Below are positions 1,157-50,462 of a stretch of 64,000 nt of DNA, one piece after another (position 1 is the stretch's first letter; each line of letters opens with the position of its first letter). The notes beneath the pieces are model-generated. The model had not been told where the DNA came from. It searched no databases and saw only the letters and a list, made by a program, of their open reading frames with translations. The DNA lies in contig OY762209.1 of assembly GCA_963665295.1 (NCBI GenBank), positions 960,001 to 1,024,000 on the forward strand. Reading direction: 5' to 3'. The translations under genes were made by a program, and so were the position numbers. Source of the DNA: Syntrophorhabdaceae bacterium (GTDB taxonomy: Bacteria > Desulfobacterota > Syntrophorhabdia > Syntrophorhabdales > Syntrophorhabdaceae).

Positions 1157-1185
1157 GATGCCTCCTCGTGGTAAACGCGATATTA

Positions 1186-1702: not shown

Positions 1703-1717
1703 GAGACGGGCGCGTGG

Positions 1718-3747: not shown

Positions 3748-3785
3748 CAGCGCCCATACCGCAAACAATTAAGTATCCCGCAAAA

Positions 3786-3812
3786 GAACGGGGCCGGCAA
3801 ACGGCCCTGTTC
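3786..3812 (+). terminator. Probable intrinsic terminator hairpin
   Basis: GAACGGGGCCG-GCAAA-CGGCCCTGTTC 40 bp after the ompA stop; weak U-tract. Confidence 0.55.
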
Positions 3813-4363: not shown

Positions 4364-4508
4364 TATAATTCGACGTTGAGAGAGGTCTGAATTATACCCC
4401 CCCATTTGTCGTTTCAGACGGTAAATGGTTACTTTTATGCAGAAGTGAAAAAAGGCTCAGAGACAGCATGGCGTAGCGTAATTTGAGATACTATGAAGGG
4501 GGGGCAAG

Positions 4509-5372
4509 ATGAATAGAGACGTGCGCTGTATCAGGGAAGGAATCACCTACAAAACGGTAGTTTTTGCAACTCTGTTGATTTGCTGCATATTACACTTCTT
4601 CTTATCATCGTCCGCAGTGGCGTCATCCCTCAGCAATGTCGTCACGGGAAAGGGCGTCGTCATCACGAAAGATGATTGGTCCCAACTATTTATCAAGGAT
4701 GGGACCATCCAATTTACGGAGACGGAGGGTGTGTTTGTTACGTTTGACGTTCTAGGGTCTTCAGGCGTTACGCAGGTGAAGGTTTCGTGCACCCTCGACG
4801 GAGAGGCCTGCAACGAGCCTTTCCGCACCTTTGGCATTGCGGAGGGAGTAAGCGGCCTTTTCCAACTGAACTTTGTGCCCAGAGGGACCCATTCGGTCGT
4901 CATCACGCTCTTTGATCAGATAGACGGCGAATACCAGGAGGTTGACAGCCGGATACTGTCATTTTCGGTGGAGGCCGGTGCGCACGCCGACCTGGCCGGC
5001 GCAGTCTCGGGAAACAGGTTGATCATGGGTGACGGCATGCCTCCGTGGAGGTTCGACGTCGAGAAACAATATCACCCGACCCGCCTTAGACGCGATATGC
5101 CTTTATTCACCGCGGTGAGGCTCACAAACATAATTGGGTGCAACAAGTACCAGGTAAAGGTCGGTTTCCGGAAGGGCGGGAAGAACATAGAGGGCTTCTC
5201 AAAGGAGTACGATACTCAAGGCCTCTACAAAAGTGAAGAATACGTCTGGATAGCGCAACCCGCCGATAGCCTGGAAAAAGGTGGATACAGGCGAACCATT
5301 TCGATCAGTTACGACGGCGGTCCTTTTACGGAGTTAAAAGAGAACGGCACAAAGCTGTTTTCGATCTACTGA
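4509..5372 (+). CDS. Hypothetical exported beta-rich protein
   Basis: 287-aa ORF, G-rich RBS, hydrophobic N-terminal signal-like segment; no family recognised. Confidence 0.7.
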   Translation: MNRDVRCIREGITYKTVVFATLLICCILHFFLSSSAVASSLSNVVTGKGVVITKDDWSQLFIKDGTIQFTETEGVFVTFDVLGSSGVTQVKVSCTLDGEACNEPFRTFGIAEGVSGLFQLNFVPRGTHSVVITLFDQIDGEYQEVDSRILSFSVEAGAHADLAGAVSGNRLIMGDGMPPWRFDVEKQYHPTRLRRDMPLFTAVRLTNIIGCNKYQVKVGFRKGGKNIEGFSKEYDTQGLYKSEEYVWIAQPADSLEKGGYRRTISISYDGGPFTELKENGTKLFSIY

Positions 5373-5480
5373 AGCCTGTCAGAAAATGCCGATGTCGCGA
5401 GATCCTATGCGCTTAGCCTGTAAACCGATAACCCACGCCCCGCGGTTTCTCCGGACAAGCATAGATATCAAAGGCCTCCC
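5327..5480 (+). repeat. 154-bp segment, inverted copy at 11905-12058 (9 mismatches)
   Basis: Manual alignment; includes the last ~14 codons of 4509..5372 and downstream DNA. Confidence 0.95.
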
Positions 5481-6986: not shown

Positions 6987-7985
6987 TTAGTGTACCCCGC
7001 CATCGCTCGTTGATAATGGCTTATTGATCCAGACGGCGTCAGGCAGTGACGCCGGTTTCGGCATCCTCCCCTTGAACCGTTCCGGATGTTTTTCATACGC
7101 AGCCCGCAGTACGTCCGTACGACCTTCAATGATCCTCAACGCTCTTCCATAATGGACGTCCTCGGGGGTGAGAAGACCTATCCCCGAATGGTAATGCTCG
7201 GTATTGTACCAGGGGAAGAATGTCTGGCAAAAGGCCCGGGCATCCTCAATGGAGCCGAACCTTTGAGGGAACTCGGGCCGGTACTTCATGGTCTTGAACT
7301 GAGATTCGGAATAGGGGTTGTCATTACTGACCGAAGGCCTCGAATGGCTCTTGGTGACCCCGAGATCGGCCATGAGCAGGGCGACGGGTTTCGACGTCAT
7401 ACTCGACCCCCTGTCCGCATGGATCAGGAGCTTACCGGGCTCTATCATTTGCTTCTCGCAGGTCTCCGCGATCAGTTTGCGAGCAAGGGCGGCAAGTTCC
7501 CTGTGGGCCACCATCCACCCCACCACATAGCGGCTGTAGATGTCGAGGATCACATAGAGGTAGTAGTAGGTCCATTTTACGGAACCCTTGAGCTTCGTGA
7601 TATCCCAGCTCCACGCCTCGTTGGGCGCCTTCGCGAGGATCTCCGGTTTTGCGTACCGGGGACGGGAGACCTGCCTCCTCCTTTCTTTCAGCTCACCTTC
7701 TTCTTCAAGGATCCGGTACATGGTGCGCACTGAACAGAGATAGCTCTTCTCGTCCAGGAGGGCCGCGTAGATTTCCCGGGGTGCTTTATCGATGAAGCGG
7801 TCCGAATGAAGGATATCAAGTACATCGTTCCGTTCCCCGAAGGAGAGGGCCAAGGGAGAGAGACGGTTCAAAGGTTCCTTCTCTTTCGGATGCTGCCACC
7901 GGTAAAAGCCCGCACGGGATACGTCGAGGGCGTTGCAGGCAGGGCGGATACCCACTTCATGGGCAAGCGATTGCGTGATGTTCAT
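6987..7985 (-). CDS. IS3 transposase OrfB (rve/DDE integrase)
   Basis: WSWDITKL, HADRGSSM, SNDNPYSESQFKTMKY. Confidence 0.95.
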   Translation of the reverse strand: MNITQSLAHEVGIRPACNALDVSRAGFYRWQHPKEKEPLNRLSPLALSFGERNDVLDILHSDRFIDKAPREIYAALLDEKSYLCSVRTMYRILEEEGELKERRRQVSRPRYAKPEILAKAPNEAWSWDITKLKGSVKWTYYYLYVILDIYSRYVVGWMVAHRELAALARKLIAETCEKQMIEPGKLLIHADRGSSMTSKPVALLMADLGVTKSHSRPSVSNDNPYSESQFKTMKYRPEFPQRFGSIEDARAFCQTFFPWYNTEHYHSGIGLLTPEDVHYGRALRIIEGRTDVLRAAYEKHPERFKGRMPKPASLPDAVWINKPLSTSDGGVH

Positions 7986-8380
7986 GACTTCTCCTCGCTC
8001 GACCCCTTGAGCAGCTCGGCCACTTTTTTTTGGACCTCGATAATGAGCTCCGCCTGTTTCAGTTTATGGGTGAGCCTCGTGTTCTCCTTTTCCAGTTCGA
8101 TGGTGCGACGGATAAGGGGATCAGGCTTTTGTGTGACGGGTCCTCTCTTTTTCGGGATGAGGCCCTGGTGAACCTGACGCCGCCATGAGGTGAGGCTCGA
8201 TGAATAAAGTCCCTCTCTGCGCAGAAGCGCCCCTATCTCACCCTTCCCGGTACAGTTCTCCACCTCCTTGAGGATACGGAGCTTGTACGCCGCGGTGAAT
8301 TTCCGGCGAACTGCCTTTTCCGGTACTTCCGGATCGGGGACTACCCTTGGTGATGCCATGACTGATTTCTTTTCTTCCAC
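7982..8380 (-). CDS. IS3 OrfA (HTH); -1 frameshift signal A8G at ~8023-8031
   Basis: RRKFTAAYKLRIL...GALLRREGLYSS; CAA AAA AAA GTG, -1 frame open into orfB. Confidence 0.92.
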   Translation of the reverse strand: MEEKKSVMASPRVVPDPEVPEKAVRRKFTAAYKLRILKEVENCTGKGEIGALLRREGLYSSSLTSWRRQVHQGLIPKKRGPVTQKPDPLIRRTIELEKENTRLTHKLKQAELIIEVQKKVAELLKGSSEEKS

Positions 8381-9958: not shown

Positions 9959-10115
9959 TTATTAAATATGCCGGTTGTGAGGTTCAGCAGGCAAGTTGAC
10001 GGGTCAAAACCGATGGGAGGCAGGCCCAGGACCATCGCGCGCTTCGCGGTACGGCCTTTCTTTCAACGGGCCTTTATTTCCGGCATCGATTTTATTAGAT
10101 ATGCCGGTTGTGAGG
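9959..10115 (+). repeat. 24-bp direct repeats (9959-9982, 10092-10115) 133 bp apart
   Basis: TTATTA(A/G)ATATGCCGGTTGTGAGG, one mismatch. Confidence 0.9.
9979..10091 (+). repeat. 113-bp direct repeat, copy 1 (copy 2 at 12059-12171)
   Basis: Ungapped alignment, offset 2080, 8 mismatches. Confidence 0.95.
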
Positions 10116-10255: not shown

Positions 10256-10972
10256 ATGAACATCGACCTCACTGACAGGATCACCAAAGCAGTTTCTCAT
10301 TACTGGCAGACCCGATCTGCACAGCGTCAAAAACAGCAACAAAGCGGCAAAGCCGATCAAGGGTTGAGGAGCGCCGTAACGGGTGGTGCCCAGATGGATG
10401 GCTTCATTGATTTTCTGACCGACCTTATCGTACGGTCCGGTATAGGTGAGGAATTCGTTTTCCGGAGAAAGGCCGTTGAAATTCCGGGGTACTTCAGGCC
10501 CACCAAAGAATGGGACCTTCTTGTTGTTCGTGACAAGACGTTGATGGCGGTAATAGAAGCAAAGTCTCAGGTTGGTCCTTCTTTCGGAAACAACTTCAAT
10601 AACCGGACGGAGGAGGCAATAGGAAGCGCCCTCGACCTATGGACCGCGTTCAGGGAACGTGCGTACCTCGACAGCCCGCAACCCTTTTTGGGGTATTTCT
10701 TTATGCTTGAGGACTGTGAAGCGTCAGTCAGACCCGTCTCTGTCCAGGAGCACCACTTCAAGGTTTTCTCTGAATTCGTGGGCGCTTCATATATGAAACG
10801 TTACGAACTATTCTGCCGGAAGCTTGTCCTTGAAAGACATTACTCTGCCGCGGCTTTTATCACCTCAAGGTCTGATACCGGGATTAGGGGAGCATATAAG
10901 ACTCCTGCCGACGATTTATCCCTCGAACGGTTCGCCCGGACGTTGGCCGCCCACGTGAAGAGTTTTGCCTGA
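10256..10972 (+). CDS. Type II restriction endonuclease, PaeR7I/XhoI family
   Basis: RSAVTGGAQMDGF, PGYFRPTKEWDLLV, EAKSQVGPSFGNNFNNRTEEAIGSALDLWTA. Confidence 0.9.
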   Translation: MNIDLTDRITKAVSHYWQTRSAQRQKQQQSGKADQGLRSAVTGGAQMDGFIDFLTDLIVRSGIGEEFVFRRKAVEIPGYFRPTKEWDLLVVRDKTLMAVIEAKSQVGPSFGNNFNNRTEEAIGSALDLWTAFRERAYLDSPQPFLGYFFMLEDCEASVRPVSVQEHHFKVFSEFVGASYMKRYELFCRKLVLERHYSAAAFITSRSDTGIRGAYKTPADDLSLERFARTLAAHVKSFA

Positions 10973-11885
10973 AATCATGACTGCAACGTCTCACAGACTT
11001 ATTACGGGCGATGCACGAGATCTCGCCTTTTTGGCAGACGAGTCGGTGCACCTTGTAGTGACGTCTCCGCCCTATTGGAACCTAAAGCGATACAATGAAT
11101 CCCCTGATCAAATGGGTCACATCGAGGATTACGAGGTCTTTCTCCGGGAACTTGAGAAAGTATGGAGACACGTTTTTCGTGTGCTTGTTCCAGGCGGACG
11201 GCTTGTTTGTGTGGTCGGCGATGTCTGCGTCGCCAGACGCAATTTTGGGCGACACCTCGTATTTCCTCTCCACGCTGATATCTGCGTCATCTGCAGGCGG
11301 ATCGGCTTTGACAACCTCAATCCGATCATCTGGCACAAAATAGCCAATGCATCGTACGAGGTGGCAAATGGTTCAAGGTTCCTTGGAAAGCCGTATGAAC
11401 CAAACGCAATAGTCAAAAACGACATGGAGTTCATCCTCATGCAGCGGAAGCCCGGCGGATACCGGAAGCCCTCGGGGGCTCAGCGTGAAGCGAGCAGGAT
11501 ATCGAAGGAGGAATTCGACCGCTGGTTCCAGCAGATATGGAACATAACAGGAGCTTCAACAAAATACCATCCCGCGCCATTCCCCTCGGAACTGGCGACC
11601 CGCCTCGTACGCATGTTCTCTTTTGCGGGTGACACAGTTCTTGACCCATTTTGCGGCTCGGGTACCACCATGGTTGCCGCCCTCAGGACCGGGCGGAACA
11701 GTATCGGAGTGGAAATAGATCCGGATTATTGCCGGATGGCGGCCCGCTATCTCAAGGCCGAGAGTTCCAGTCTTTTCTCCGAGATTAACCTGGTCTTCGA
11801 AAGAGTCACTGCCGAAAACGAATGCATGGTAAGAGAGGATCAAACGCTTTACGAAATAAAACCGGCCCGTAAAAAACTGACCTGA
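10965..11885 (+). CDS. Beta-class amino DNA methyltransferase (N4-C/N6-A; start 10965 or 10977)
   Basis: VTSPPY (motif IV) precedes HPAPFP and LDPFCGSGTT (motif I). Confidence 0.93.
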   Translation: MPEIMTATSHRLITGDARDLAFLADESVHLVVTSPPYWNLKRYNESPDQMGHIEDYEVFLRELEKVWRHVFRVLVPGGRLVCVVGDVCVARRNFGRHLVFPLHADICVICRRIGFDNLNPIIWHKIANASYEVANGSRFLGKPYEPNAIVKNDMEFILMQRKPGGYRKPSGAQREASRISKEEFDRWFQQIWNITGASTKYHPAPFPSELATRLVRMFSFAGDTVLDPFCGSGTTMVAALRTGRNSIGVEIDPDYCRMAARYLKAESSSLFSEINLVFERVTAENECMVREDQTLYEIKPARKKLT

Positions 11886-11904: not shown

Positions 11905-12058
11905 GGGAGGCCTTTGATATCTATGCTTGTCCGGAGAAACCGCGGGGCGTGGGTTATCGGTTTAAAGGCTGACCGCATAGGACCTCGCGACATAGGCATT
12001 TTCCGACAGGCTTCAGTAGATCAAAAACAGCTTTGTACCGTTCTCTTTGAACTCCGTA
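11905..12058 (-). repeat. Inverted copy of 5327-5480
   Basis: Reverse complement encodes ...TEFKENGTKLFLIY* versus ...TELKENGTKLFSIY*. Confidence 0.95.
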
Positions 12059-12171
12059 GAGGTTCGGCAAGCAAGTTGACGGGTCAGAACCGATGGGAGA
12101 CAGTCCCGGGACAATCGCGCGCTTCGCGGTACGGCCTTTATTTCAACGGGCCTTTATTTCCGGCATCGATT
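12059..12171 (+). repeat. 113-bp direct repeat, copy 2
   Basis: 93% identical to 9979-10091. Confidence 0.95.
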
Positions 12172-12358
12172 GATTAAAATAAATAGGTTGCGCCGGGTGG
12201 AGTAGGTGGGGGCGTGGAGCGAAAGTTTCAGATGGGCTGCTCTGTGAAGGGGTGTGGCCTGGAGCCGTACTTAATGTACGGAGGAAGGCTCGCCCCTTTG
12301 CAGAGGGGTCCATATGGAGCTTTCACTTCACGCCCCCACCTGTCCACTGGAACTAAAC
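12149..12358 (+). repeat. 210-bp structured element, copy A (long hairpin ~12197-12347, apex CCGTAC-TTAAT-GTACGG)
   Basis: Homologous to 46900-47109; imperfect palindrome with G.T wobbles. Confidence 0.9.
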
Positions 12359-12461: not shown

Positions 12462-12490
12462 TTGCATTAACTTGAAAAACTTACTATAAT
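12462..12490 (+). promoter_or_regulatory. Sigma-70 promoter of the phoU-pst operon
   Basis: TTGCAT-N17-TATAAT. Confidence 0.7.
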
Positions 12491-12521: not shown

Positions 12522-13202
12522 GTGGAAGGACATATCTATAAGGCCTTCGATTTAGAGTTGAAGGAGCTTAAAGAGAAACTGCTCTATGAGGGCGGGCTCG
12601 TGGAAAGGGGCATCAGGGACGCTACCAAGGCGCTCCTCGAGCGCTATTCCGAACTTGCCCAGAAGGTCATCGAGGACGACGAGGTGATCAACGCCAAAGA
12701 GGTGGAGATCGACGAATACTGTCTGAAACTCCTCGCCCTCCGCCAGCCCGCGGCGCGGGACTTGAGATTCATCACCACCGCCATCAAGATCAATTACGAT
12801 CTCGAAAGAATCGGCGACATGGCGGTCAACATCTGCGAGAGGGTCCTGGAACTGAACGAGGAACCACAGCTCAAGCCCTACATCGACCTCCCCACCATGG
12901 CTGGGACGGTCCAGCTCATGGTAAAGGAAAGCCTTGATGCATTTGTGAGGGAAGATGTCGAATTAGCGAAAAAAGTCACGGAACAGGACGCAAAGGTTGA
13001 CCAGCTTCTGGAACAGATATTCCGGGAACTGCTCACCTACATGATGCAGGACCTTAAGACCATCTCGAGGGCCACTAGGCTCCTCTTCATATCGAAGTAC
13101 CTCGAGAGGATGGCGGACCACGCAGTCAATATCGCGGAACTGGTGATATTCATGGTTCAGGGGAAAATCATCAGGCACCTCAAGGACCATCCCGGGGAAT
13201 AA
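12522..13202 (+). CDS. phoU: Phosphate signalling protein PhoU
   Basis: QPAARDLR, DLERIGDMAVNI, LERMADHAVNIAE; GTG start with GAGGAGG. Confidence 0.96.
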   Translation: MEGHIYKAFDLELKELKEKLLYEGGLVERGIRDATKALLERYSELAQKVIEDDEVINAKEVEIDEYCLKLLALRQPAARDLRFITTAIKINYDLERIGDMAVNICERVLELNEEPQLKPYIDLPTMAGTVQLMVKESLDAFVREDVELAKKVTEQDAKVDQLLEQIFRELLTYMMQDLKTISRATRLLFISKYLERMADHAVNIAELVIFMVQGKIIRHLKDHPGE

Positions 13203-40919: not shown

Positions 40920-42769
40920 CTAATGTGGGTTCTCGTCCCTCACCGTCACCAGGACCGGGTCTCCCCACGTGTCCGCCACCGTGCCTTTAAGACACAAAAG
41001 GTTTACTATTTTTATGCCCGCGGCAGCAATTATAATTACGATAAGGACCATCACGAAAGCGCAGAGGAACGCGAGGAGATAGAGTTTGTTCGGCAGATAA
41101 TTCACCGTTATGTTGATAAAGCCCGCCCAGAGCGTGATTATTGCCACCCCTATTCCGGGCAGAAGGGTTATCCATATATATTTCTTCTCCCGAGACGGAT
41201 AAGCATTGCGGTTACAATAATCAGGGCGCACGCGGCAAGGAGCTGGTTGCTCACCCCGAACAGGGGCCAGATGGTGGCGATGGTGGCCGTGTAATGCAGG
41301 TATCCCCACGCAAAGGTAAAGACCGATCCCGTGATGAGCATCCCGGGGAGCCAGCGATGGTCGTTGAATTTCGGAAAAACTTTGCCGATCATCTCCTGGA
41401 GGAGAAATCTTCCCGCCCTGGTTCCCGCGTCGATAAGGGTAAGTATGAACACGGCCTCGAACATTATGGCGAAATGATACCAGTATGACATCAGCTTTTC
41501 CATGGACGGAATTTTTGAAAACACATAGGCCATGCCCACCGCAAGAGAAACCGCCCCACCGGGCCTTCCCTGAAGGTTCTCCTGGACCATGGCGGAAAGC
41601 CGGGGAAGGTCGAGGGGCTTCATGCCCAATGCCGCGAACGCTTCGGGCGATGAATTGATAGCGAAGTAATCGGCGGGAACAAGAACGGACGCGGCCACGA
41701 GGGCCATCATGGCCACAAGCCCCTCGAACAGCATGGCTCCGTATCCCACGAAGAGAATATCCTTTTCGCCGGCGATCATCTTTGGCGTGGTACCGGAAGA
41801 GATGGTCGCATGGAACCCGGAGATTGCGCCGCATGCGATAGTAATAAAGATGAACGGGAAGACACCGCCCGGGACAACGGGTCCGCCTCCATGGGCAAAC
41901 TGCGTGACAGGGGGCATTTGAAGGGCGGGCTGCACAAAGATGATGCCCGTGCCGAGGGCAACGATTGTCAGGATCTTCAGGAATGTGGACAGGTAATCTC
42001 TCGGGGCAAGGAGCAGCCACACGGGGAGCACCGAGGCGATAAACGCATAGGCAGGGAGCAACAAAGATATTTGTCTCTTGCTCAGACTGAAAAACGACCT
42101 GAGCATGGGGATTTCCGTAATGGAATTACCAAAAAACACGGCGAGAAACAGAAGGACCACACCGAAAATACTCGCTATGGCAATGGACCTGTTTCCCGGT
42201 CTCCTCATGATAACACCCGTGATCAGGGCGGCAGGCAGGGTAGTCTCCACCACGAGCATCCCCCATGGACTTTCCGCAATGGCGTTTGTCATGGACATGG
42301 ATCCCCCGGCAATGGTCAGAACGAGGATAAGGAGAAAGGCGATGGAAGAAACCGTACCCGCTGTTTCTCCGATCTCGCTTCTCGCGATGTTTGCAAGGCT
42401 CTCGCCCCTGTGCCGGACCGACGCGAAGAGGACGACGATGTCGTGAACCGCACCCCCCAGCACTGCCCCGATCAGAATCCAGAGCGCGCCCGGCAGAAAA
42501 CCGAACTGGGCGGCAAGGACCGGCCCCGTAAGCGGGCCCGCCCCTGCTATGGCCGCAAAATGATGGCCGAAAAGGACAAAACGGTTGGTCTTGTGGTAAT
42601 CCAGGCCATCGGCCATGGTCTCGGCGGGCGTCGGCCGTGCCGGGTCCACCCTGAGGACCTCTGTCGCGATAAAAAGGCCGTAAAAACGGTACGCTATGGC
42701 GAAGACACACAAAGCGGCAAACACGAGCACCGCTGAATTCATTCCCGTCGACAACACTTTGCTCTCCAT
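40920..42769 (-). pseudogene. cstA: Carbon starvation protein CstA, frameshifted near 41185
   Basis: GHHFAAIAGAGP, ACGAISGFH, WPLFGVSNQLLA; the C-terminal KYIWITLLP... TM segments lie in another frame. Confidence 0.85.
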
Positions 42770-43040
42770 AAGAGTTGCATCCCCTGCGACTGTTTTTGTG
42801 TTCTGTAAGACCGTCCCGGCTTTCAGGCAAGAATATCCGCCCTCTGACCATTCATCGTCACGGGGCGGATATTCTTAACCCGACTTCATGAAAGCAATAT
42901 AACAGATTTGCACAAAAATCGAGGGCTATCTGCCCTCCCCTCCGTATCCTTTTCATTGCCTGTTTCGTCTAACAGGTAAAGGGCGTGGATTTCGAGGGTT
43001 CGGCGCCTATGGCGCTCCCTCGGTGGAAGGAGGCGAGGCA

Positions 43041-43236
43041 AATGTGGTTCTGGTGTGGTACATGTTACAGCCTGTGGTGGATGTTCCCCATCATGTTCAT
43101 CCTGTGGGCGATAGTGATGTTTCTCGCCATGAGGGCCTTTTTCGCCGGTCGGCGCTCCTGCTGCACACCCTGGAAGGGATGCGGAATCAAGGATGACGGT
43201 TACGGGCATGAAAGACGGGCATCAAAGGAGGAGTGA
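43041..43236 (+). CDS. Small membrane protein (MWFWCG...)
   Basis: GGAGG RBS, single TM segment, C-terminal CC motif. Confidence 0.55.
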
Positions 43237-43237
43237 A

Positions 43238-43540
43238 ATGAAGGACATGATGAAGATGATGGCGAACGGGTGAGGCGCCCCGGCATCGACGGCAGGCGCC
43301 GTCCCTGAAGGAGCACCGGAGACCTCCGATACAGGGGGCCTCTTTGATGAGTTGTTGAAATGTGTGGAGAAGAGGATCATGGAGTCGCTCAGGGAGCAGC
43401 GCGCGCCCGCGGAGATAGCCCGCCTACTCGGAATCTCCGAAAAGGCCATGGTCACGCTGGTTTACAGGATGGCGCAAAAAGGCAGTATCCGTATTACGGA
43501 AATAGAACCGGTGAAAGGAGATGGAAAGAATGAACGATGA
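43238..43540 (+). pseudogene. Small wHTH-like protein with an in-frame TGA at 43271-43273
   Basis: GGAGG + ATG 43238 in frame with 43352..43540; MKDMMKMMANG*GAP... Confidence 0.6.
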
Positions 43541-44033
43541 AGCGATCTGCGGAAAACAGGAAGCGTGTGCCGGGCCGGCCGGCTACGAGACGGTAAGGAT
43601 TGAAAAGACGAAGAACGTATGCCCCATGTGTGAGGACTATGCCCGGCAGCAGGCGTCGAAGGCAGTAGTGGTGATGTGCTGTGAAGGGGCATGTCTCAGG
43701 GGCGAGATTGCGAGACAGGCCGCGAACATCCTCTGCCACAGGCTCGCGCCCGAGAAGACCGTGAGGCTCTGCCTGGGCGGCGCTTTCACAAAAGACACAG
43801 GCCAGAGAAGCCTCGCGAGAAACGGCGCAAGGGTAATAGCCATCGAAGGTTGCTTTCTCGAATGCGCAAGCCGCATGATGAAAGGGGTGATCCCCGGCCT
43901 GGCCCCTGAAGTGGTGATCGCAGACAGGCTCTATGAGTTCGACCGCACCCTCTTCGGCATCGATCAAATGCCCGAAGACCGGATAAAGGTCCACGCCGGG
44001 GAAGTGGCAGCCAAGGTGCTCACTCTGTTATAA
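43521..44033 (+). CDS. Putative zinc-binding (DGC-domain-like) protein
   Basis: CPMCE, CCEGAC, AIEGCFLECA. Confidence 0.8.
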   Translation: MERMNDEAICGKQEACAGPAGYETVRIEKTKNVCPMCEDYARQQASKAVVVMCCEGACLRGEIARQAANILCHRLAPEKTVRLCLGGAFTKDTGQRSLARNGARVIAIEGCFLECASRMMKGVIPGLAPEVVIADRLYEFDRTLFGIDQMPEDRIKVHAGEVAAKVLTLL

Positions 44034-44043
44034 TGGTAGGTTA

Positions 44044-44604
44044 ATGGAGACGAAGCCGAGTTTCGAAGAGATTTACGAAACCCTTCACGTCAAGGTCCTC
44101 CGCTACCTGACAAAGCTCGTCGGGGAGGCGGAGGCCGAAGACGTAACCTAGGAGACTTTCGCAAAGATAAGCCGGTCCCTCGAAGGTTTCCGTGGACAAT
44201 CACAGCTCAACACATGGGTCTACAAGGTAGCCACCAACACGGCCCTGGACCGTCTCCGCAGCCGCGCCTTCAAGGACCCCGCAATAGTGAACATCGAAGA
44301 AATACCCGCAAGGACACCCACTGCCGAGCAACAGGCCATCCGCGAGGAAATGAACGCCTGCGTCCGCGGAGTGATCGACCAACTCCCCGACGACTACCGA
44401 ACCGCGATAGTCTTAAGCGACCTGGAAGGCTTCAAAGACGCCGAAATCGCCAAAATCCTGGGCCTCACCCTATCAACAACGAAAATCCGCCTCCACCGGG
44501 CAAGAACCCGCCTGAAACAGGAACTCTCCACCCGCTGCGTCTTCTACCGAAACGAAGAAAATGAGCTATCCTGCGACGTTAAGCCGGGAGCAGGTGAGAA
44601 ATAA
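44044..44604 (+). pseudogene. ECF sigma factor with an amber stop at 44149-44151
   Basis: AEDVT*ETF (normally D.xQE.F), TWVYKVATNTALD, region 4 TTKIRLHRAR. Confidence 0.88.
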
Positions 44605-44850
44605 CGGGAGCACAACAAGGCAATCAACCCTCCCCCATGACCCGTTATCCGGTCGGAAGGTTTTCTCTTGACTGGATCAAGTTCCATTGATATCATTCGA
44701 CTGTGTCACGGGTGTTTAGTGTTATTTTACGATGTTAGACTGACGCTCTATTCTCAAAAGGACACGGCGTTTGTCCATACTTGAGTTCTCTCATGTGGCG
44801 CCGGCAAATAACGTGCAACCGGACTTCAATTCAATCTGGAGGCAACGGTA

Positions 44851-46143
44851 ATGGCTAAGATAGATGGAATACGAATACAGAACTTTAGAGTCCTCAAAGA
44901 CGTAACCCTCGGAAAGCTTTGGAGTTTGCAACAGGCGGAGCCTCTAACCGCGATGACAGCCGTCATAGGAAAGAATGGAGTTGGTAAGAGTACGCTTTTT
45001 GACGCGTTTGGCTTTTTGTCCGATTGTCTCAAAAGTGGCGTAGAAGAAGCATGCGATCTGCGAGGGCGTGGCGGGTTCGACAAAATTCGTTCTCAAGGGC
45101 AGGACGGCCCCATTAAATTTGAGCTTTACTATAAAGAGGATGGCAATGCCCGTCCAATAACCTATGAGCTTTCCATAGACCTTGACCACATGCATCGCCC
45201 CTATGTTCAAGGAGAGCGACTGAGGCAACGGCGAAAGGGGCAAAAACACGGTTGGCCCTTTTCGTTCCTTATGCTTGACAATGGCCGTGGGGTCGCTTGG
45301 AAGGGAGAGGAGGAAGGTCGTCAGATTGATGAGGGCAAGGGCGATTTTGATCCGTCAGAGTTCATTAGAACAATCATAGAAGAATATGGCAAGGAAGAGA
45401 GCAGGGAAACCGAGGTAGTGGAATTGGAGGACATGAGGAAACTTGGCATCGCTACCCTCGGGTCGCTGAAACAACACCCCCGTATCTCAGCTTTTCGACG
45501 CTTTATGGAAGGTTGGTACCTCAGTTATTTTACCCCGGACGCTGCCCGAAGTCTACCTCTCGCTGGCCCACAAAGGCATCTCAACATTCACGGCGATAAT
45601 TTGGGAAATGTGGTTCAGTTTATGGAGAGGGAACATCCTAAAAAATTCAGAGCGATCTTGGATCAGATTGCAGCGAAAATCCCCGGCATCAATAAGATAG
45701 ATACCGAGAAGACGCCCGATGGGCGACTCCTTCTTCGCTTCAACGATAAGGGATTTTCAGATCCATTCTATGCGCAACAAATGTCCGATGGGACTTTAAA
45801 GGTGTTTGCGTATTATTTGCTGCTTGAAGACCCTACGCCTCCACCATTTTTATGCATTGAGGAGCCGGAAAATGGCCTTTATCACAAGCTGTTGGAATCG
45901 TTAGCAAAAGAATTCCGAGACCATGCCACTGGCCAAAAAGGCGGTTCGCAGATTTTCATCACTACTCACCAACCGTACTTCGTCAACGCTCTCGCCCCCG
46001 AGGAGGTGTGGATTCTAGACAAAATCGGTGATGGTTTTTCAACAATCCGTAGAGCAAGTGCCGACGCCCTTGTGTCCAACATGGTTAACGAGGGATTGCC
46101 GCTAGGTGGTCTATGGTATAGTGATTACTTGGATATACGGTGA
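44851..46143 (+). CDS. ABC/SMC-type ATPase (AAA_21/AAA_15)
   Basis: IQNFRVL, GKNGVGKS, MSDGT, IEEPENGL, TTHQP; codon usage less GC-biased than core genes. Confidence 0.93.
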   Translation: MAKIDGIRIQNFRVLKDVTLGKLWSLQQAEPLTAMTAVIGKNGVGKSTLFDAFGFLSDCLKSGVEEACDLRGRGGFDKIRSQGQDGPIKFELYYKEDGNARPITYELSIDLDHMHRPYVQGERLRQRRKGQKHGWPFSFLMLDNGRGVAWKGEEEGRQIDEGKGDFDPSEFIRTIIEEYGKEESRETEVVELEDMRKLGIATLGSLKQHPRISAFRRFMEGWYLSYFTPDAARSLPLAGPQRHLNIHGDNLGNVVQFMEREHPKKFRAILDQIAAKIPGINKIDTEKTPDGRLLLRFNDKGFSDPFYAQQMSDGTLKVFAYYLLLEDPTPPPFLCIEEPENGLYHKLLESLAKEFRDHATGQKGGSQIFITTHQPYFVNALAPEEVWILDKIGDGFSTIRRASADALVSNMVNEGLPLGGLWYSDYLDIR

Positions 46144-46147
46144 TATT

Positions 46148-46840
46148 GTGCACTTTGAAATCCTCGTTGAAGATACTTCGGGAAAAAGACTTCTTGAGGC
46201 GCTGGTCCCAAAGATACTAGGCGCGAACGGTGGACCTCATACATGGCGCATCATTTCATACAAAGGCATTGGACACATACCGAAGGATTTGCGGGGCAAA
46301 CTTGATCCGTCAAAAAGGGTACTACTCGACCAACTGCCAAGATTGCTGGCAGGCTATGGGAATACGTATCCGAACGGTCTACATGATACAGTTGTGGTCG
46401 TGGTTATAGACTGTGACGACAAGAAGTGCGATACTTTTCTCTCTGATCTGAATCAAATTTTGAACATCTCCATCTCTAAACCTGAGACATTATTTAGACT
46501 GGCGATTGAGGAATGTGAAGCGTGGTTGTTAGGAGACAGGGCAGCGGTTACACAAGCGTATCCTCGAGCAAAGAAGACAGTCCTTGATGGATACATTCAG
46601 GATTCGATCTGTGGCACGTGGGAGAAGCTGGCCGATGCCATTTATCCAGGTGGAGCAAAGGCCCTCGAGGGAAGGCCTTATTTTGAGGTTGGTACCGTAA
46701 AATGCGAGTGGGCTGAACGAATCGGTCAATACATTAACGTTGAAACGAACGCATCATATAGTTTCGGTAAACTCCGTGATGGCTTGAGGAAGCTTGCCGG
46801 GAAAGCAAGGGACACGAACCGAGAACTGCAAAGGACATAG
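46148..46840 (+). CDS. DUF4276-like (TOPRIM-like) protein
   Basis: GTG start; EILVEDTS, VVIDCD, AIEECEAWLLGD. Confidence 0.82.
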   Translation: MHFEILVEDTSGKRLLEALVPKILGANGGPHTWRIISYKGIGHIPKDLRGKLDPSKRVLLDQLPRLLAGYGNTYPNGLHDTVVVVVIDCDDKKCDTFLSDLNQILNISISKPETLFRLAIEECEAWLLGDRAAVTQAYPRAKKTVLDGYIQDSICGTWEKLADAIYPGGAKALEGRPYFEVGTVKCEWAERIGQYINVETNASYSFGKLRDGLRKLAGKARDTNRELQRT

Positions 46841-46899
46841 TCAGGGATTGAACTGGACAGACTGATCCGCCGAAGTATTGTCACAAACCTTGCCAAGCC

Positions 46900-47109
46900 G
46901 GCCTTTATTTCCGGCATCGATCAATTGAAAATAAATAAGATGTGCCGGGTGGTGTAGGCGGGGGCATGGGACGGGGACTTCAGATTCGTTGTTCTGTGAG
47001 GGTTCGCAGGGCGTCGTCGTACTCAAGTACGACAGAGCACGCGTACCCTTGCAGAGCGGCGGAGATGGAGTTTCCGTTCTATGCCCCCACCTGCCCACTG
47101 AAACTAAAC
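46900..47109 (+). repeat. 210-bp structured element, copy B (long hairpin ~46949-47098, apex GTCGTAC-TCAA-GTACGAC)
   Basis: Same length, same 5' 22-mer and same 3' AACTAAAC as copy A. Confidence 0.9.
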
Positions 47110-47204
47110 GACTAAACAGACTTAAACCAAACAAATCACGCCCATCGCTCCAAGCCGCTGCCGCTCTTCTAACCTGCCTCTCCCGCCGCTGCGCTCGTGC
47201 TGCC

Positions 47205-48332
47205 TTAGAAGGGCTTTTCTTCGGTTTCCAGCTTGAACTGGGACTGCTTCTTTTCTACCTCGTCTTTCTTTACCTCGGACATCTTTATCCTCAGCCTTAC
47301 GTCGTTCGGGCTGTCCGCGTAGGCTATGGCGGCGTCGTAGTCTATTCTGCCCGCCATGTAGAGGTCGAAGATATGCTGGTCGAAGGTCTGCATGCCCTCA
47401 TGGTAGGCAAGGGCCATGGCTTCCTTCAGGAGGTCTATCTCGCCCTTCAGGATGAGGTCCTTGACCCTCGGCGTGTCGAGGAGCACTTCTATGGCCGCCA
47501 CCCTCTTCCGGTCCACCGTGGGTATCAGCCTCTGGGAGATAATGGCCCTCAGGTTGAGGGAAAGCTGCATATATATCTGCAGGTGCCGCTCTATGGGGAA
47601 AAAATTGAGTATCCTCTCCATGGCCTGGTTCGCGTTATTCGAGTGGAGGGTCGCAAGGGCAAGGTGGCCCGTTTCCGCGAAGGTTATGGCATGCTCCATG
47701 GTCTCTGCGTCCCTTATCTCCCCTATGAGTATCACGTCCGGCGCCTGGCGCAGCATGTTCTTCAGGGCGTTGGCGAAGGAGTGGGTATCGAAGCCCACTT
47801 CACGCTGGGTGACCACGCTCATCTTATGGGGGTGGACGAACTCTATGGGGTCCTCTATGGTGATGATATGGCCGCTCTCAGTGGAATTCCTGTGGTCGAG
47901 CATGGCCGCGAGACTCGTCGACTTTCCGCTCCCCGTGGCGCCCACCACAAGGACCAGGCCTCGCTTGGTCATCACTATATCCTTCATGATATTAGGCAGA
48001 CCCAACTCATCGACGGTCTGGATGCGTATCTTTATCTGCCTGATGACGAGGCCCGTAAAGCTCCTCTGCCGGAATATGTTGACCCTGAACCGTCCCATGT
48101 CAGGATAATAGAGGGCAAGGTTCATTTCAAGATCTTCCTCGTAGGCCTTCCTCTGCCGCTCGCTCATGATGCCTACGGCGATGGCCTCCGTCTCCTCACG
48201 GGTCAGCGCTTCGCCGCCGTACGGCCCGACCCTCCCTTCGATACGGAACATGGGCGGGGCGCCCACGGTAAGGTAGATATCGGACGCGTCATTGTCCACC
48301 ATGTGCTTCAGGTAGTCTTTAAGGGTTGCCAC
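47205..48332 (-). CDS. pilU: Type IV pilus retraction ATPase PilU
   Basis: GATGSGKS, TIEDPIE, LRQAPDVILIGEIRD, TLHSNNA; follows pilT. Confidence 0.93.
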   Translation of the reverse strand: MATLKDYLKHMVDNDASDIYLTVGAPPMFRIEGRVGPYGGEALTREETEAIAVGIMSERQRKAYEEDLEMNLALYYPDMGRFRVNIFRQRSFTGLVIRQIKIRIQTVDELGLPNIMKDIVMTKRGLVLVVGATGSGKSTSLAAMLDHRNSTESGHIITIEDPIEFVHPHKMSVVTQREVGFDTHSFANALKNMLRQAPDVILIGEIRDAETMEHAITFAETGHLALATLHSNNANQAMERILNFFPIERHLQIYMQLSLNLRAIISQRLIPTVDRKRVAAIEVLLDTPRVKDLILKGEIDLLKEAMALAYHEGMQTFDQHIFDLYMAGRIDYDAAIAYADSPNDVRLRIKMSEVKKDEVEKKQSQFKLETEEKPF

Positions 48333-48335
48333 GGG

Positions 48336-49370
48336 TCACCTCAACGCCTTCGACAGGTAGAAAGAGACCTCTTCCCTGGTCACGAGGTTCCTCGCCATGA
48401 GGTCCTGCACCGAGGACTCCATGGTCTGCATCCCCTGGGCCTTGCTCGTCTGCATGCTGGAGAGGATCTGGAAGATCTTGCCCTCCCTTATGAGGTTTCT
48501 CACCGCGGGACTCCCGAGGAGTATCTCGAAGGCCGCAATCCTGCCCCTGCCGTCTTTCCTCTTGAAAAGGGCCTGGGTGATGACGGCCTGCATGGACTCG
48601 GCGAACATGGACCTCACCTGGTTCTGCTGGGCTGCGGGGAAAACATCGATCACCCTGTCCACCGTGCTCGGCGCGCCGCTCGTATGGAGGGTCCCGAAAA
48701 CGAGGTGCCCTGTTTCCGCCGCGGTCAGGGCGAGAGAGATGGTCTCCAGGTCCCTGAGTTCACCCACGAGGATCACGTCCGGGTCCTCCCGGAGCGCGCT
48801 TCTCAGGGCATTGGCAAAGCTCCTTGTATGGGGGCCGAGTTCCCTCTGGTTCATGAGACAGCTCTTCGACTGGTGGACAAACTCTATGGGGTCTTCTATG
48901 GTGATGATATGGCCCTTGCTCTCCGTATTAATGAGGTCTATCATGGTGGCGAGGGTCGTCGATTTTCCACTGCCCGTGGGGCCCGTAACAAGGACAAGGC
49001 CCTTTTCGAGACGGGCGATATCCATCATGACCTTGGGAAGGCCCAGATCCTCGAAAGAGGGGATGTGGTTGGGTATGGACCTGAAAACGGCCGCATCCCC
49101 GCGCTCCTGCTTGAAAACGTTTCCCCTGAACCTGCCGTATTCGCCGAGGGCGAAGGAGAAGTCCAGCTCCAGGTGCTCCTCGTACGCCTTCCGCTGCTGA
49201 TCGTTCAGGATACCGTATATCATGTTATGGACCGTCTCCCTGTCGAGGTTCGGCATGTCGACCTTCCGCATCTCGCCGTTTATCCTCACAAAGGGCTGCT
49301 CGCCCGCGCTCACATGGAGATCCGATCCATGATTTTCCACTGCAAAGATCAATAATTCCGAAATATCCAC
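48336..49370 (-). CDS. pilT: Type IV pilus retraction ATPase PilT
   Basis: GPTGSGKS, LREDPDVILVGELRD, AVRNLIREGK. Confidence 0.96.
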   Translation of the reverse strand: MDISELLIFAVENHGSDLHVSAGEQPFVRINGEMRKVDMPNLDRETVHNMIYGILNDQQRKAYEEHLELDFSFALGEYGRFRGNVFKQERGDAAVFRSIPNHIPSFEDLGLPKVMMDIARLEKGLVLVTGPTGSGKSTTLATMIDLINTESKGHIITIEDPIEFVHQSKSCLMNQRELGPHTRSFANALRSALREDPDVILVGELRDLETISLALTAAETGHLVFGTLHTSGAPSTVDRVIDVFPAAQQNQVRSMFAESMQAVITQALFKRKDGRGRIAAFEILLGSPAVRNLIREGKIFQILSSMQTSKAQGMQTMESSVQDLMARNLVTREEVSFYLSKALR

Positions 49371-49379
49371 ACAGGCCTC

Positions 49380-50462
49380 CTAGTGTAGTGTCTCAGTAAC
49401 GCCTTTACAGCGATTCACTTTTTCAAGTATCTCCTCGGCCTTCCTGGTCCATACGAAGGGTTTGGGGTCTTCGTTGTTGCAGCGAATATATTCTTCGATG
49501 GCGGTCACCAGTTCCTGAACGCTTTTGAAGATGCCGCGACGAATTCTCTTTCGTGTGATCTCCCCGAACCAGCGCTCCACCAGGTTAAGCCACGACGAGC
49601 TTGTGGGTGTAAAGTGGGGAACGAAACGGGGGTGTTTTTCGAGCCATGCTTTCACATTGGGGTGGGTATGAGTTCCGTAGTTGTCGAGAATCATATGGAC
49701 ATCGAGGCCCTTTGGCACCTGACGGTCTATGGTACGCAGGAACTTAAGAAATTCGGTATTTCTGTGGCGGGGATAGCAGGAGCCTATGACTTTTCCTTCC
49801 AGAACATTGAGGGCGGCAAAAAGACAGGTAGTGCCGTTCCTTTTGTAGTCGTGGGTCATCGTGCCGCAGCGCCCCTTCTTCATCGGTAATCCCGGCTGGG
49901 TCCGGTCCAGGGCCTGCACCTGGCTTTTCTCATCCACACAGAGTACCACCGCTTTGTCGGGAGGATTGAGATAGACGCCCACCACATCGGTCAGTTTCTC
50001 CACGAACTTCTTGTCTCTGGACAGCTTGAAAGTTTCTACCCGATGGGGCTGTAGTCCATGGGCATCCCAGATGCGCTGCACGGTGGCATGGCTCACGCCC
50101 TTCTCCTTTGCCATGGTGCGGGTGGACCACTGAGTAGCATCTTTGGGAGTTGTATGGAGCGTGGCTTCCACGATGGTGCGCACTATCTCCGGGTTAAGGC
50201 GCCTTGAACTCGGCCCATGGGGTGCGTCCTCCGACAAACCGGAGGGGCCCTGTTCTCTGAAGCGGCCTACCCACAATATCACCGTAGGGCGGGAGGTATT
50301 GAGCCTCTTCGCTATGGCGTTATGGGACATCCCTTCTGCCGCGAGCAGGCAGATGCGGGAGCGTAGAACCACCCTTTGGGGAGTCTTCTTTGCTTTGACC
50401 CATGTTTCCAATGTCTTTCTCTGCTCTTCCGTCATGTCTAGCGTACTGGCTGGATTCCACAT
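49380..50462 (-). CDS. IS630 transposase
   Basis: WSTRTMA, VDEKSQ, LDNYGTH, SWLNLVERWF. Confidence 0.96.
   Translation of the reverse strand: MWNPASTLDMTEEQRKTLETWVKAKKTPQRVVLRSRICLLAAEGMSHNAIAKRLNTSRPTVILWVGRFREQGPSGLSEDAPHGPSSRRLNPEIVRTIVEATLHTTPKDATQWSTRTMAKEKGVSHATVQRIWDAHGLQPHRVETFKLSRDKKFVEKLTDVVGVYLNPPDKAVVLCVDEKSQVQALDRTQPGLPMKKGRCGTMTHDYKRNGTTCLFAALNVLEGKVIGSCYPRHRNTEFLKFLRTIDRQVPKGLDVHMILDNYGTHTHPNVKAWLEKHPRFVPHFTPTSSSWLNLVERWFGEITRKRIRRGIFKSVQELVTAIEEYIRCNNEDPKPFVWTRKAEEILEKVNRCKGVTETLH

What the first reader, a model, noticed from the sequence alone, without database searches (positions are those of the whole stretch)
46841..47109. Both hairpin elements sit at the 3' junction of foreign defence gene pairs: possible cargo-capture system
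Seen: copy B starts 60 bp after the ATPase/DUF4276 pair; copy A follows the R-M pair and repeat mosaic. Both have the same orientation relative to the cargo, and both are the last feature before core genes (pilU, phoU). No recombinase lies nearby. Inference: dispersed folded-ssDNA sites used by a trans-acting enzyme (HUH/RAYT-like nuclease or integron-like tyrosine recombinase) to insert and swap defence cassettes, like a distributed integron. An alternative is a structured RNA cotranscribed with defence operons. Two examples are too few to prove the association.
Basis: inference. Interest (0 to 1): 0.82.

Follow-up and report, generated by a model that had tools for sequence, protein, structure and literature searches.

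The report
Dispersed long-hairpin intergenic repeat family
The two hairpins are members of a family of about 27 copies of a 195-base, non-coding palindromic repeat scattered between the genes of this bacterium and its relatives, so lying next to defence genes looks like a side effect of sitting at recombination-prone gene junctions, not a dedicated gene-capture device.

Summary
Both copies (window 46904-47101 and 12153-12350, + strand) are real, homologous, and fold far better than chance. Each follows a foreign gene pair (HEC-01 ATPase/DUF4276; XhoI R-M) and precedes a core gene (pilU-like; phoU).

They are 2 of 27 copies in this genome. The family occurs in 21 of 41 related genomes, and in 0 of 146 genomes sampled from other orders of the phylum. 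It matches no Rfam family.

The core is a small inverted repeat plus a long hairpin of about 56 pairs. Compensatory changes keep the hairpin intact (43 of 56 pairs across 80 copies). One strand is favoured: G-U 462 versus A-C 53, and the sense strand is more stable in 80 of 80 copies.

In this genome the 5' side is enriched for foreign or mobile genes: 9 of 17 unpaired copies, against 0 of 17 on the 3' side. In relatives the neighbours are mostly housekeeping genes.

No HUH or integron integrase is linked to the element. It is not retained at the orthologous pilU, phoU or proS loci.

Best reading: a new ERIC/REPIN-like, non-autonomous palindromic repeat sitting at synteny breakpoints. The cargo-capture mechanism is not supported. 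Unexplained in this genome: copies avoid the terminus region and 15 of 17 point toward the origin.

The parts
46841..46903 (+). 63-nt spacer between the DUF4276 stop codon and copy B. It contains a promoter-like TGGACA-16-TATTGT site at 46854-46881.
   Evidence: unique in the genome
46904..46948 (+). Copy B 5' module: a T-rich lead and a small inverted repeat (CCGGCAT, AT-rich loop, GTGCCGG) at 46911-46948.
   Evidence: The stem is nearly invariant in this genome (helix 1: 0 of 6 pairs changed on both sides). By eye it covaries in genus g5.
46949..47098 (+). Copy B long hairpin, with the conserved motifs CAGAU/AUAUGGAG and CUGUGARGG/CYUUGCAGAG.
   Evidence: (+ strand -122, minus strand -86 kcal/mol)
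47099..47204 (+). C/A-rich, G-poor tail and spacer running to the stop codon of the convergent pilU-like gene.
12153..12350 (+). Copy A core: small inverted repeat at 12160-12196 and long hairpin at 12197-12347.
   Evidence: R1 187.6 bits
12059..12152 (+). Local upstream repeat in front of copy A. A second copy lies at 9979-10110.
   Evidence: found only at these two places in the genome
9958..10116 (+). A partial small inverted repeat and a chimeric one flanking the second copy of the upstream repeat. There is no long hairpin here.
   Evidence: (solo 5' module at genome 970050-970106)
11905..12058 (+). Right arm of a 154-nt inverted repeat (94% complementary). The left arm lies at 5327-5480.
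44851..46840 (+). HEC-01A/B candidate defence pair (AAA_21 ATPase + DUF4276) forming a low-GC island.
   Evidence: codon score density 0.04
10256..11885 (+). XhoI-family restriction endonuclease and N6_N4 methyltransferase.
47205..48332 (-). pilU/pilT-like T2SSE ATPase, a core gene. Synteny with relatives ends at its 3' side, next to copy B.
12522..13202 (+). phoU, a core gene. Its TATAAT (12485-12490) lies between copy A and the gene and is conserved in G001.
6987..8380 (-). IS3-type transposase (HTH_Tnp_1 + rve), inside the region bracketed by the 154-nt inverted repeats.
   Evidence: By identical Pfam scores, the same IS also lies by the GajA-linked copy at genome 2.90 Mb.

Best explanation
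The hairpins belong to an undescribed family of non-autonomous, non-coding palindromic intergenic repeats. The family works like ERIC/YPAL, Correia and REPIN elements and is confined to one bacterial order.

Each copy has three parts: a 5' small inverted repeat with an AT-rich spacer, a long hairpin of about 56 pairs, and an A/C-rich tail.

Shown: the family is multicopy and varies in copy number and position between related genomes. It is absent from orthologous sites. Its hairpin is kept by compensatory changes on one strand only.

Inferred: copies spread, or are kept, through a single-stranded folded form of the sense strand. That form could be RNA when the copy is read through from neighbouring genes, or ssDNA at the replication fork.

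Inferred: the adjacency to defence genes in this window is indirect. Copies sit at synteny breakpoints, and their 5' inverted-repeat end is a preferred breakpoint. Truncated, chimeric, tandemly duplicated and IS-interrupted copies all break there. Insertion sequences and horizontally acquired genes, defence genes among them, therefore pile up on the 5' side, while the 3' side stays anchored to a native gene.
For: Family size and spread:
- 27 copies in this genome.
- 21 of 41 related genomes have a match. 0 of 146 genomes from other orders of the phylum do.
- No Rfam match. No plasmid or phage match.
- No reading frame is consistently open across copies.

Structure:
- In 25 copies from this genome, 97.4% of cells are paired and 35 of 62 pairs change on both sides. 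Controls with slid partners give 6-12, and 0 of 500 shuffles reach the observed values.
- In 80 copies from 6 genomes, 43 of 56 long-hairpin pairs are compensatory. G-U counts 462 against A-C 53. The sense strand is more stable in 80 of 80 copies.

Mobility or turnover:
- No element lies within 1.5 kb of the pilU or phoU orthologues in 5 relatives.
- In the acetyl-CoA synthase operon, G003 and this genome carry the element in different intergenic gaps.
- A 170-nt tandem array has 3.9 units at 100% identity.
- An IS630 sits inside one copy.
- Remnants that have lost the long hairpin exist.

Synteny with same-genus genomes ends at the element at pilU, phoU and proS, 3 of 3 loci examined.

Polarity in this genome: the 5' neighbour is atypical in 9 of 27 copies and the 3' neighbour in 0 of 27.

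Known analogues: REPIN hairpins show compensatory changes (PMC3116915, passages read). ERIC elements are co-transcribed, with orientation-dependent effects (PMC2229807, passages read).
Against: - No target-site duplication, no clean empty site and no autonomous parent element was found, so transposition is not shown.
- Copies within one genome are only 68-93% identical. That is old for an active MITE and fits a conserved functional RNA equally well.
- Orientation relative to genes is only weakly biased. The downstream gene is co-oriented in 62 of 100 copies (18 of 27; 44 of 73), and in 0 of 8 copies in G029.
- No RNA data exist, so co-transcription is unproven.
- The 5'-side enrichment for foreign genes is significant only in this genome. 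Against a control of genes flanking long intergenic regions it is modest (p = 0.04).
- The breakpoint role of the small inverted repeat rests on my reading of about 6 loci.
Confidence: 0.55

Rival explanations
1. A host-serving structured RNA: a multicopy cis-acting leader or intercistronic element. It could stabilise mRNA, act as an RNase III site, or work as a hairpin plus C-rich Rho-loading insulator. It would be transcribed in the sense direction and spread only incidentally.
For: - The fold is strand-specific, with a G-U excess and strong covariation.
- The 3' end always lies close to a gene boundary. Median distance is 81 nt to a co-oriented start and 47 nt to a convergent end.
- In genus g5 a conserved tail of about 60 nt ends about 20 nt before the Shine-Dalgarno sequence of many different genes. 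Many copies there are intercistronic between co-oriented genes.
- Downstream genes in this genome have higher codon scores than the genome at large (Mann-Whitney p = 1e-5).
Against: - Downstream genes are functionally unrelated.
- In 38 of 100 copies the downstream gene is convergent. This is so for all 8 in G029.
- In this genome, by eye, the native -10/-35 elements lie between the element and the gene, for example at phoU.
- The scan found no promoter or terminator consensus inside the two window copies.
- 20 of 41 related genomes, including close kin, have no match.
Confidence: 0.22
2. One reading: folded single-stranded recombination sites used by a trans-acting HUH nuclease or integron-like tyrosine recombinase to insert and exchange defence cassettes on the 5' side, a distributed integron.
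For: - Foreign and defence genes show a polar 5' association in this genome. XhoI R-M, HEC-01 and GajA are immediate upstream neighbours, and Upx is the third gene upstream.
- One strand is selected to fold.
- The repeat upstream of copy A and its small inverted repeat are duplicated on both sides of the R-M cassette, as a Campbell-type insertion would leave them.
- 15 of 17 unpaired copies have one orientation relative to replication. From memory, sedentary chromosomal integrons show a similar bias.
- In G029 a 3.3-kb unit carrying a tyrosine recombinase, 100% identical at two loci, lies beside the 5' side of two different copies.
Against: - This genome has no integron integrase: 0 of 23 candidates at E <= 1e-20.
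- Integrase presence does not track the element across the 41 genomes.
- Its 4 Y1_Tnp genes lie at least 13 kb from any copy and are flanked by another IS. G020, where I placed 26 copies, has no Y1_Tnp match at E <= 1e-5.
- Only about 2 of 138 neighbours in relatives are defence genes.
- The element is not retained at orthologous loci.
- The G029 unit joins at different distances from the two copies, 48 and 176 nt.
- R1 finds nothing on the cassette side of a real integron in G007.
Confidence: 0.08
3. A polar chromosome-level DNA element tied to replication or segregation, for example a fork-related or recombination-modulating site, whose orientation relative to the origin is the selected feature.
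For: - 15 of 17 unpaired copies point toward the origin (two-sided p = 0.002).
- All 21 loci avoid a 2.03-Mb stretch that contains the terminus (simulation p = 0.002).
- In G040, 11 of 15 copies show the same sense by local GC skew.
Against: - There is no signal in G029 (5 of 10) or in 74 copies from five relatives using 7-kb flanks (37 of 74). Power there is low.
- Paired divergent copies exist at 5 loci.
- Both patterns were found after looking at the data, not predicted beforehand.
- The bias could instead reflect preferential loss of copies whose stronger hairpin lies on the lagging-strand template.
Confidence: 0.08

Closest known systems
REPINs (REP doublets forming hairpins) mobilised by RAYT (PMC3116915; passages read)
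   Same: Both are non-coding, multicopy, intergenic long hairpins. In both, compensatory changes on the two sides of the hairpin are common. Clusters and tandem arrangements occur in both. Both are presumed to be single-strand structures.
   Different: This element is not built from two short REP palindromes. No Y1/RAYT gene is flanked by it or co-occurs with it. It has an extra 5' small inverted repeat and a 3' tail. At about 195 nt it is about twice the REPIN size.
ERIC/YPAL elements of enterobacteria and Yersinia (PMC2229807; passages read)
   Same: Both are imperfect palindromes of 100-170 bp or more that sit between genes. ERIC elements fold as RNA when co-transcribed, with orientation-dependent effects. 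Here the strand asymmetry suggests one functional strand.
   Different: There is no sequence relation, and the family is confined to a different order. Co-transcription is untested here. No TA target-site duplication was seen.
Correia/NEMIS elements of Neisseria (PMC2229807; passages read)
   Same: Both are mobile-looking palindromic repeats with a central or AT-rich protein-site-like part. In Correia elements the hairpin is an RNase III substrate. From memory, Correia elements are also often found at junctions of variable regions.
   Different: No terminal inverted repeat plus TA duplication architecture was found. The hairpin is much longer and covaries.
Integron attC sites, including solitary ones
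   Same: In both, the structure rather than the sequence is conserved and one strand is the folded one. Both lie next to cassette-like foreign genes. The orientation bias relative to replication is similar.
   Different: This element is about 195 nt, against 57-141 nt for attC. No conserved R/L boxes were seen. This genome has no IntI. The copies are not arrayed here. The sites of a real integron in relative G007 do not match the model.

Membership tests
Bacterial MITE | Short, non-coding, multicopy, intergenic | tested here: met
   27 copies of about 195 nt, none overlapping a called gene by more than its mis-called start. Stop codons occur in all frames.
Bacterial MITE | Terminal inverted repeats at the element's ends | tested here: inconclusive
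   The core is itself a long palindrome. The outer parts (5' module against 3' tail) are not inverted repeats of each other.
Bacterial MITE | Target-site duplication | tested here: inconclusive
   None seen in the aligned flanks of the 27 copies or at the G003 insertion. No clean empty site was available.
Bacterial MITE | A related autonomous IS with the same ends | tested here: not met
   All genome matches are the short element. The one gene enclosed by two inverted, diverged copies (G007:C9) is a response regulator/PP2C phosphatase, not a transposase.
REPIN/RAYT system | Hairpin kept by compensatory changes | tested here: met
REPIN/RAYT system | A Y1 (RAYT) gene flanked by the repeats and co-occurring with them | tested here: not met
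   PF01797 matches in 29 of 41 genomes do not track the element. G020 has none, and several genomes without the element have them. The 4 genes in this genome lie at least 13 kb from any copy and are flanked by another IS.
Integron attC / CALIN | An integron integrase in the genome or beside the sites | tested here: not met
   TIGR02249 gives 0 matches in this genome at E <= 1e-20.
Integron attC / CALIN | attC size and R''-L''/L'-R' boxes with GTTRRRY (definition recalled) | tested here: not met
   The core is about 195 nt. By eye, no conserved GTTRRRY or RYYYAAC lies at the ends of the 27 aligned copies.
Integron attC / CALIN | Resemblance to attC sites of a real integron in the clade | tested here: not met
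   With filters off, R1 finds nothing at E <= 1 on the cassette side (1-4500) of the G007:C9 integron.
Any Rfam 15 RNA family | Covariance-model match | tested here: not met
   The whole window gives 0 matches at gathering thresholds. In 46700-47300 at E <= 10 the only match is a chance lncRNA hit outside the element.
ERIC-like transcribed palindromic repeat | Co-transcription with flanking genes and an RNA-level effect | not testable with these tools
   No RNA run is listed for this sequence.

The most novel reading that the evidence does not exclude
The element is a polar, replication-oriented, single-strand-folded integration site. Foreign DNA (defence cassettes, IS elements, integrase-bearing units) enters at the AT-rich spacer of its 5' inverted repeat through an unidentified trans-acting enzyme. 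The hairpin and its 3' side stay fixed to a native gene. This would be an integrase-less, dispersed counterpart of an integron.
Probability: 0.1. Interest if true: 0.85.

Novelty: new member of a known kind. Interest (0 to 1): 0.48.

Why it matters
This gives an order of mostly uncultured anaerobes its first defined interspersed repeat family. The family has an unusually long, strongly covarying and strand-specific hairpin, which makes it a clean case for asking what maintains such palindromes: RNA function, ssDNA mobility, or replication-linked survival.

It also bears on annotation. The repeats break assemblies (contigs end in them) and mark synteny breakpoints and island edges. They could serve as markers for variable junctions where defence genes land.

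If the polar link to foreign DNA and to replication direction holds in more complete genomes, it would point to a new route of gene acquisition.

Tried and rejected
- Collection scan with the two conserved 9-mers: the pattern was too loose. It gave no information on distribution.
- Sequencing runs: no RNA holder is listed.
- Laying contigs of four runs on 41000-50000: three runs hold pieces identical to the window, and one run's contigs break inside the element (47013-47038). The fourth run holds only diverged fragments. No strain variant and no joint across the island was seen, so this says nothing on cargo turnover.
- Earlier scan notes: nothing on this element.
- Plasmid and phage collections: no match.
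- Promoter and terminator scans: no consensus site inside either window copy.
- Small ORF in the element: no frame is consistently open. Only 39 of 80 copies could be anchored for this test.
- Direct repeats bounding the HEC-01 island: only short pairs that look like chance.
- Empty-site comparison in the acetyl-CoA synthase operon: the flanks are too diverged to define ends.
- Genus-level synteny: the genomes are too rearranged to show cargo exchange at a fixed site.
- Replication-orientation replicate: equivocal. G040 gives 11 of 15, G029 5 of 10, and 74 copies from five relatives with 7-kb flanks give 37 of 74.
- Literature: a full-text search for intergenic repeat and hairpin terms together with taxon names I guessed returned no paper containing either 'intergenic repeat' or 'hairpin' among the 10 listed of 53. 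I found no description of this family, but the taxon is unknown to me, so this is a weak negative.

Full report
**1. Observation**

The window is G000:C1:960001-1024000. Copy B sits 63 nt after the stop codon of a DUF4276 ORF (46106-46840). An AAA_21 ATPase (44851-46143) precedes that ORF. The pair matches PADLOC HEC-01A and HEC-01B at E 5e-196 and 3e-88. It forms a low-GC island (0.45-0.50 against 0.55-0.61) that ends at the element.

Copy A follows an XhoI endonuclease and methylase pair (10256-11885), a 154-nt inverted-repeat arm and a 132-nt direct repeat. The next genes are a pilU/pilT-like ATPase (47205-48332, minus strand) and phoU (12522-13202).

As RNA, the + strands fold to -122 and -131 kcal/mol (z -9.7 and -11.8). 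The minus strand of copy B reaches only -86 kcal/mol.

An IS3-type transposase lies 3.8 kb upstream of copy A. There are far more than two copies.

**2. A dispersed family**

BLAST and a covariance model (R1, built from 25 full copies) find 27 copies in this 5.5-Mb genome. Of these, 26 are full-length (E <= 2e-38). The other is split by an IS630-type transposase gene, and its 5' module lies 1.1 kb away. Matches on the opposite strand score about 100 bits lower.

R1 matches 21 of 41 related genomes: family f1 11 of 24, f3 9 of 11, f2 0 of 2, f4 0 of 3. Two of the 21 rest on single weak hits. I placed 28 copies in G007 and 26 in G020. In a sample of 151 genomes of the phylum, only this genome and G007 match, so 0 of 146 genomes from other orders match. 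That search used strict filters and scored few candidates per genome.

Rfam 15 has no match. Neither do the plasmid and phage collections.

**3. Anatomy and structure**

The core is about 195 nt and has four parts:
- a T-rich lead;
- a small inverted repeat (CCGGCAT, then 20-28 AT-rich bases, then ATGCCGG);
- a long hairpin with two small internal loops and conserved helical motifs (CUGUGAAGG/CCUUUGCAG);
- an A/C-rich, G-poor tail.

On the 25-copy alignment, 97.4% of cells are paired. Thirty-five of 62 pairs change on both sides. Controls with slid partners give 6-12, and 0 of 500 shuffles reach the observed values.

I also took 80 sense copies from six genomes, aligned to the model, which favours the modelled structure. 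In these, 43 of 56 long-hairpin pairs show two or more canonical pair types that differ on both sides. G-U cells number 462 against 53 A-C cells. The sense strand is the more stable one in 80 of 80 copies, with RNA and with DNA energy parameters alike.

The small inverted repeat is almost invariant in this genome, so it offers no covariation test there. By eye it is a longer stem with paired changes in genus g5. No reading frame is consistently open (39 of 80 copies could be anchored).

The conclusion is that one strand's fold is under selection. The data do not tell RNA from ssDNA.

**4. Where copies sit**

Gene calls here come from my own codon-score ORF caller. All 27 copies are intergenic.

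In this genome:
- The downstream gene is co-oriented in 18 of 27 copies, at roughly 50-600 nt.
- It is convergent in 9 of 27, at 42-215 nt from its end.

For 74 copies in G007, G020, G001, G029 and G003:
- The downstream gene is co-oriented in 44 of 73 (median 81 nt).
- It is convergent in 29 of 73 (median 47 nt). All 8 copies in G029 are of this kind.
- The upstream side is farther away (medians 191 and 520 nt).

In g5 the element is longer. About 110 conserved bases lie upstream, and a tail of about 60 nt ends about 20 nt before the Shine-Dalgarno sequence of many unrelated genes. Many copies lie between co-oriented genes.

In this genome, by eye, native promoter elements lie between the element and the gene. 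For phoU, a TATAAT at 12485-12490 is conserved in G001. Five loci carry divergent pairs of copies. One such pair type recurs at three loci.

**5. Is it tied to defence cargo?**

In this genome there is a real polarity. The gene next to the 5' side falls in the lowest tenth of codon scores in 9 of 27 copies, or 9 of 17 if paired copies are set aside. The gene next to the 3' side does so in 0 of 27. The paired Wilcoxon test gives p = 3e-4. Against genes flanking long intergenic regions (17.6% low-scoring), p = 0.04 for the upstream side and 0.005 for the downstream side.

Upstream neighbours within three genes include:
- XhoI R-M, HEC-01, GajA (E 3e-258) and Upx (1773 bits);
- ParE and a reverse transcriptase;
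- transposases of four types;
- a PIF1-like helicase;
- a class A beta-lactamase-family gene.

There is one exception on the 3' side. An IS256-type transposase ORF starts at the 3' edge of the copy at 1.463 Mb.

The link does not generalise. Of 138 immediate neighbours in the five relatives, nine have a PADLOC hit at E <= 1e-15. Only about two of these are plausible defence genes: a type I S subunit 2.5 kb away and a PDC-S31 protein. The rest are ABC-ATPase, TPR or glycosylase look-alikes. The 94 neighbours I also scanned with Pfam are mostly metabolic or housekeeping genes, such as cobalamin synthesis, glyQ, argJ, trpA, murJ, xseA and transporters. The 44 G020 neighbours were not scanned with Pfam.

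**6. Orthologous loci**

R1 finds no element within 1.5 kb of the pilU or phoU orthologues in G001, G003, G005, G007 or G020 (0 matches at E <= 1 in 10 loci).

Six-frame comparison shows where synteny with G001, G003 and G005 stops:
- at the pilU 3' end (window about 47182);
- about 40 nt downstream of copy A (window about 12393).

Beyond those points the neighbours differ. The proS locus behaves the same way in G001, G002 and G003. So the element lies at synteny breakpoints at 3 of 3 loci examined. It is not a retained landmark with changing cargo. No genomes closer than different species were available.

In the acetyl-CoA synthase operon, G003 has a copy between the RACo and CooC-like genes. 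This genome has a pair between the CooC-like gene and cdhD. That shows position turnover inside a core operon.

**7. Candidate enzymes**

Y1_Tnp (PF01797) occurs in 29 of 41 genomes, with no relation to the element. G020 has none at E <= 1e-5, while several genomes without the element have many. The four Y1-like genes here lie at least 13 kb from any copy and are flanked by a different multicopy IS.

The integron integrase model finds nothing in this genome (0 of 23 candidates at E <= 1e-20), nor in G001, G029 or G040, all of which carry the element. In G007 a true integrase with a run of small opposite-strand ORFs has no R1 match on that side. Two diverged copies on its other side enclose a response-regulator phosphatase gene, not a transposase.

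In G029 a unit of at least 3.3 kb encoding a tyrosine recombinase, 100% identical at two loci, abuts the 5' side of two different copies. The distances differ, 48 and 176 nt.

**8. Signs of instability at the 5' inverted repeat**

This section rests on my reading of the sequences.
- The window holds a half inverted repeat and a head-to-head chimeric one, flanking a second copy of the local upstream repeat, on the far side of the R-M pair.
- Remnants of oppositely oriented 5' modules abut the upstream gene at two other copies.
- A 170-nt unit ending in the small inverted repeat is repeated 3.9 times at 100% identity.
- Several loci keep the 5' module and tail but have lost the long hairpin.

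**9. Chromosome-level pattern (unexplained)**

Cumulative GC skew places the origin near 1.1-1.25 Mb and the terminus near 3.95 Mb. The 21 loci leave a 2.03-Mb gap that contains the terminus (simulation p = 0.002). Fifteen of 17 unpaired copies have their sense strand on the lagging-strand sequence, so they point toward the origin (p = 0.002). By comparison, 54% of genes lie on the leading strand.

Local skew gives the same sense in 11 of 15 G040 copies. It gives no signal in G029 (5 of 10) or with short flanks in the other relatives (37 of 74). Both patterns were noticed after the fact.

**10. Verdict**

The finding is a real, apparently undescribed repeat family. It works most like ERIC/YPAL, Correia and REPIN elements (passages read in PMC2229807 and PMC3116915). 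It fails the tested membership criteria for REPIN/RAYT, for attC and for any Rfam family. The MITE criteria beyond size and copy number are unmet or open.

The cargo-capture model is not excluded, but it lacks an enzyme, lacks conservation at orthologous sites, and does not hold in relatives. I put it near 0.1. No RNA data could be found, so whether the selected single strand is RNA or DNA stays open.

Noticed in passing
window 5327-5480 and 11905-12058: 154-nt inverted repeats (94% complementary), found nowhere else in the genome. They bracket 6.4 kb holding a DUF4410 gene, unknown ORFs, an IS3-type transposase and the XhoI R-M pair. This may be a composite mobile unit.
   Followed up: partly
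L081:8982-9641 (G000 616982-617641): A tandem array of 3.9 units of 170 nt, 100% identical. Each unit carries an upstream module plus the small inverted repeat, and the last unit runs into a full copy upstream of proS.
   Followed up: partly
whole genome G000: All 21 element loci avoid a 2.03-Mb stretch around the terminus. 15 of 17 unpaired copies point toward the replication origin.
   Followed up: partly
L266:3872-7171 and L270:157-3456 (G029): A unit of at least 3.3 kb encoding a 353-aa tyrosine recombinase, 100% identical at two loci. Each copy lies beside the 5' side of a different hairpin element.
   Followed up: partly
L293:121-5909 (G007:C9): An integron integrase (TIGR02249, 442 bits) next to a run of small opposite-strand ORFs that look like a cassette array. 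On its other side two diverged hairpin elements enclose a response-regulator/PP2C gene of a chemotaxis cluster.
   Followed up: partly
L080:1388-5257 and L091:10488-12233 (G000): A full-length Upx-model protein (1289 aa, 1773 bits) and a GajA-model protein (E 3e-258). Each has atypical codon usage and a transposase beside it. No GajB partner was seen among the three nearest genes.
   Followed up: no
L092:6591-11587 (G000) and L272:1419-4580 (G003): The RACo / CooC-like / CdhD acetyl-CoA synthase cluster carries the element in different intergenic gaps in the two species.
   Followed up: partly
G000 825725-826687, 849001-849939, 860498-861448, 1816241-1817212: Four genes of about 320 aa with weak Y1_Tnp matches. 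Three of them are flanked on one side by a multicopy repeat of about 415-500 nt (13 or more copies at 93-99% identity). A truncated relative with a DnaA_C HTH lies 1.7 kb from the copy at 2.369 Mb.
   Followed up: partly
L096:13909-14784 (G000): A class A beta-lactamase-family gene with atypical codon usage lies directly upstream of the copy at 5.504 Mb.
   Followed up: no
window 47013-47038: Public-run contigs of the same strain end inside copy B, so the repeat breaks short-read assemblies.
   Followed up: no
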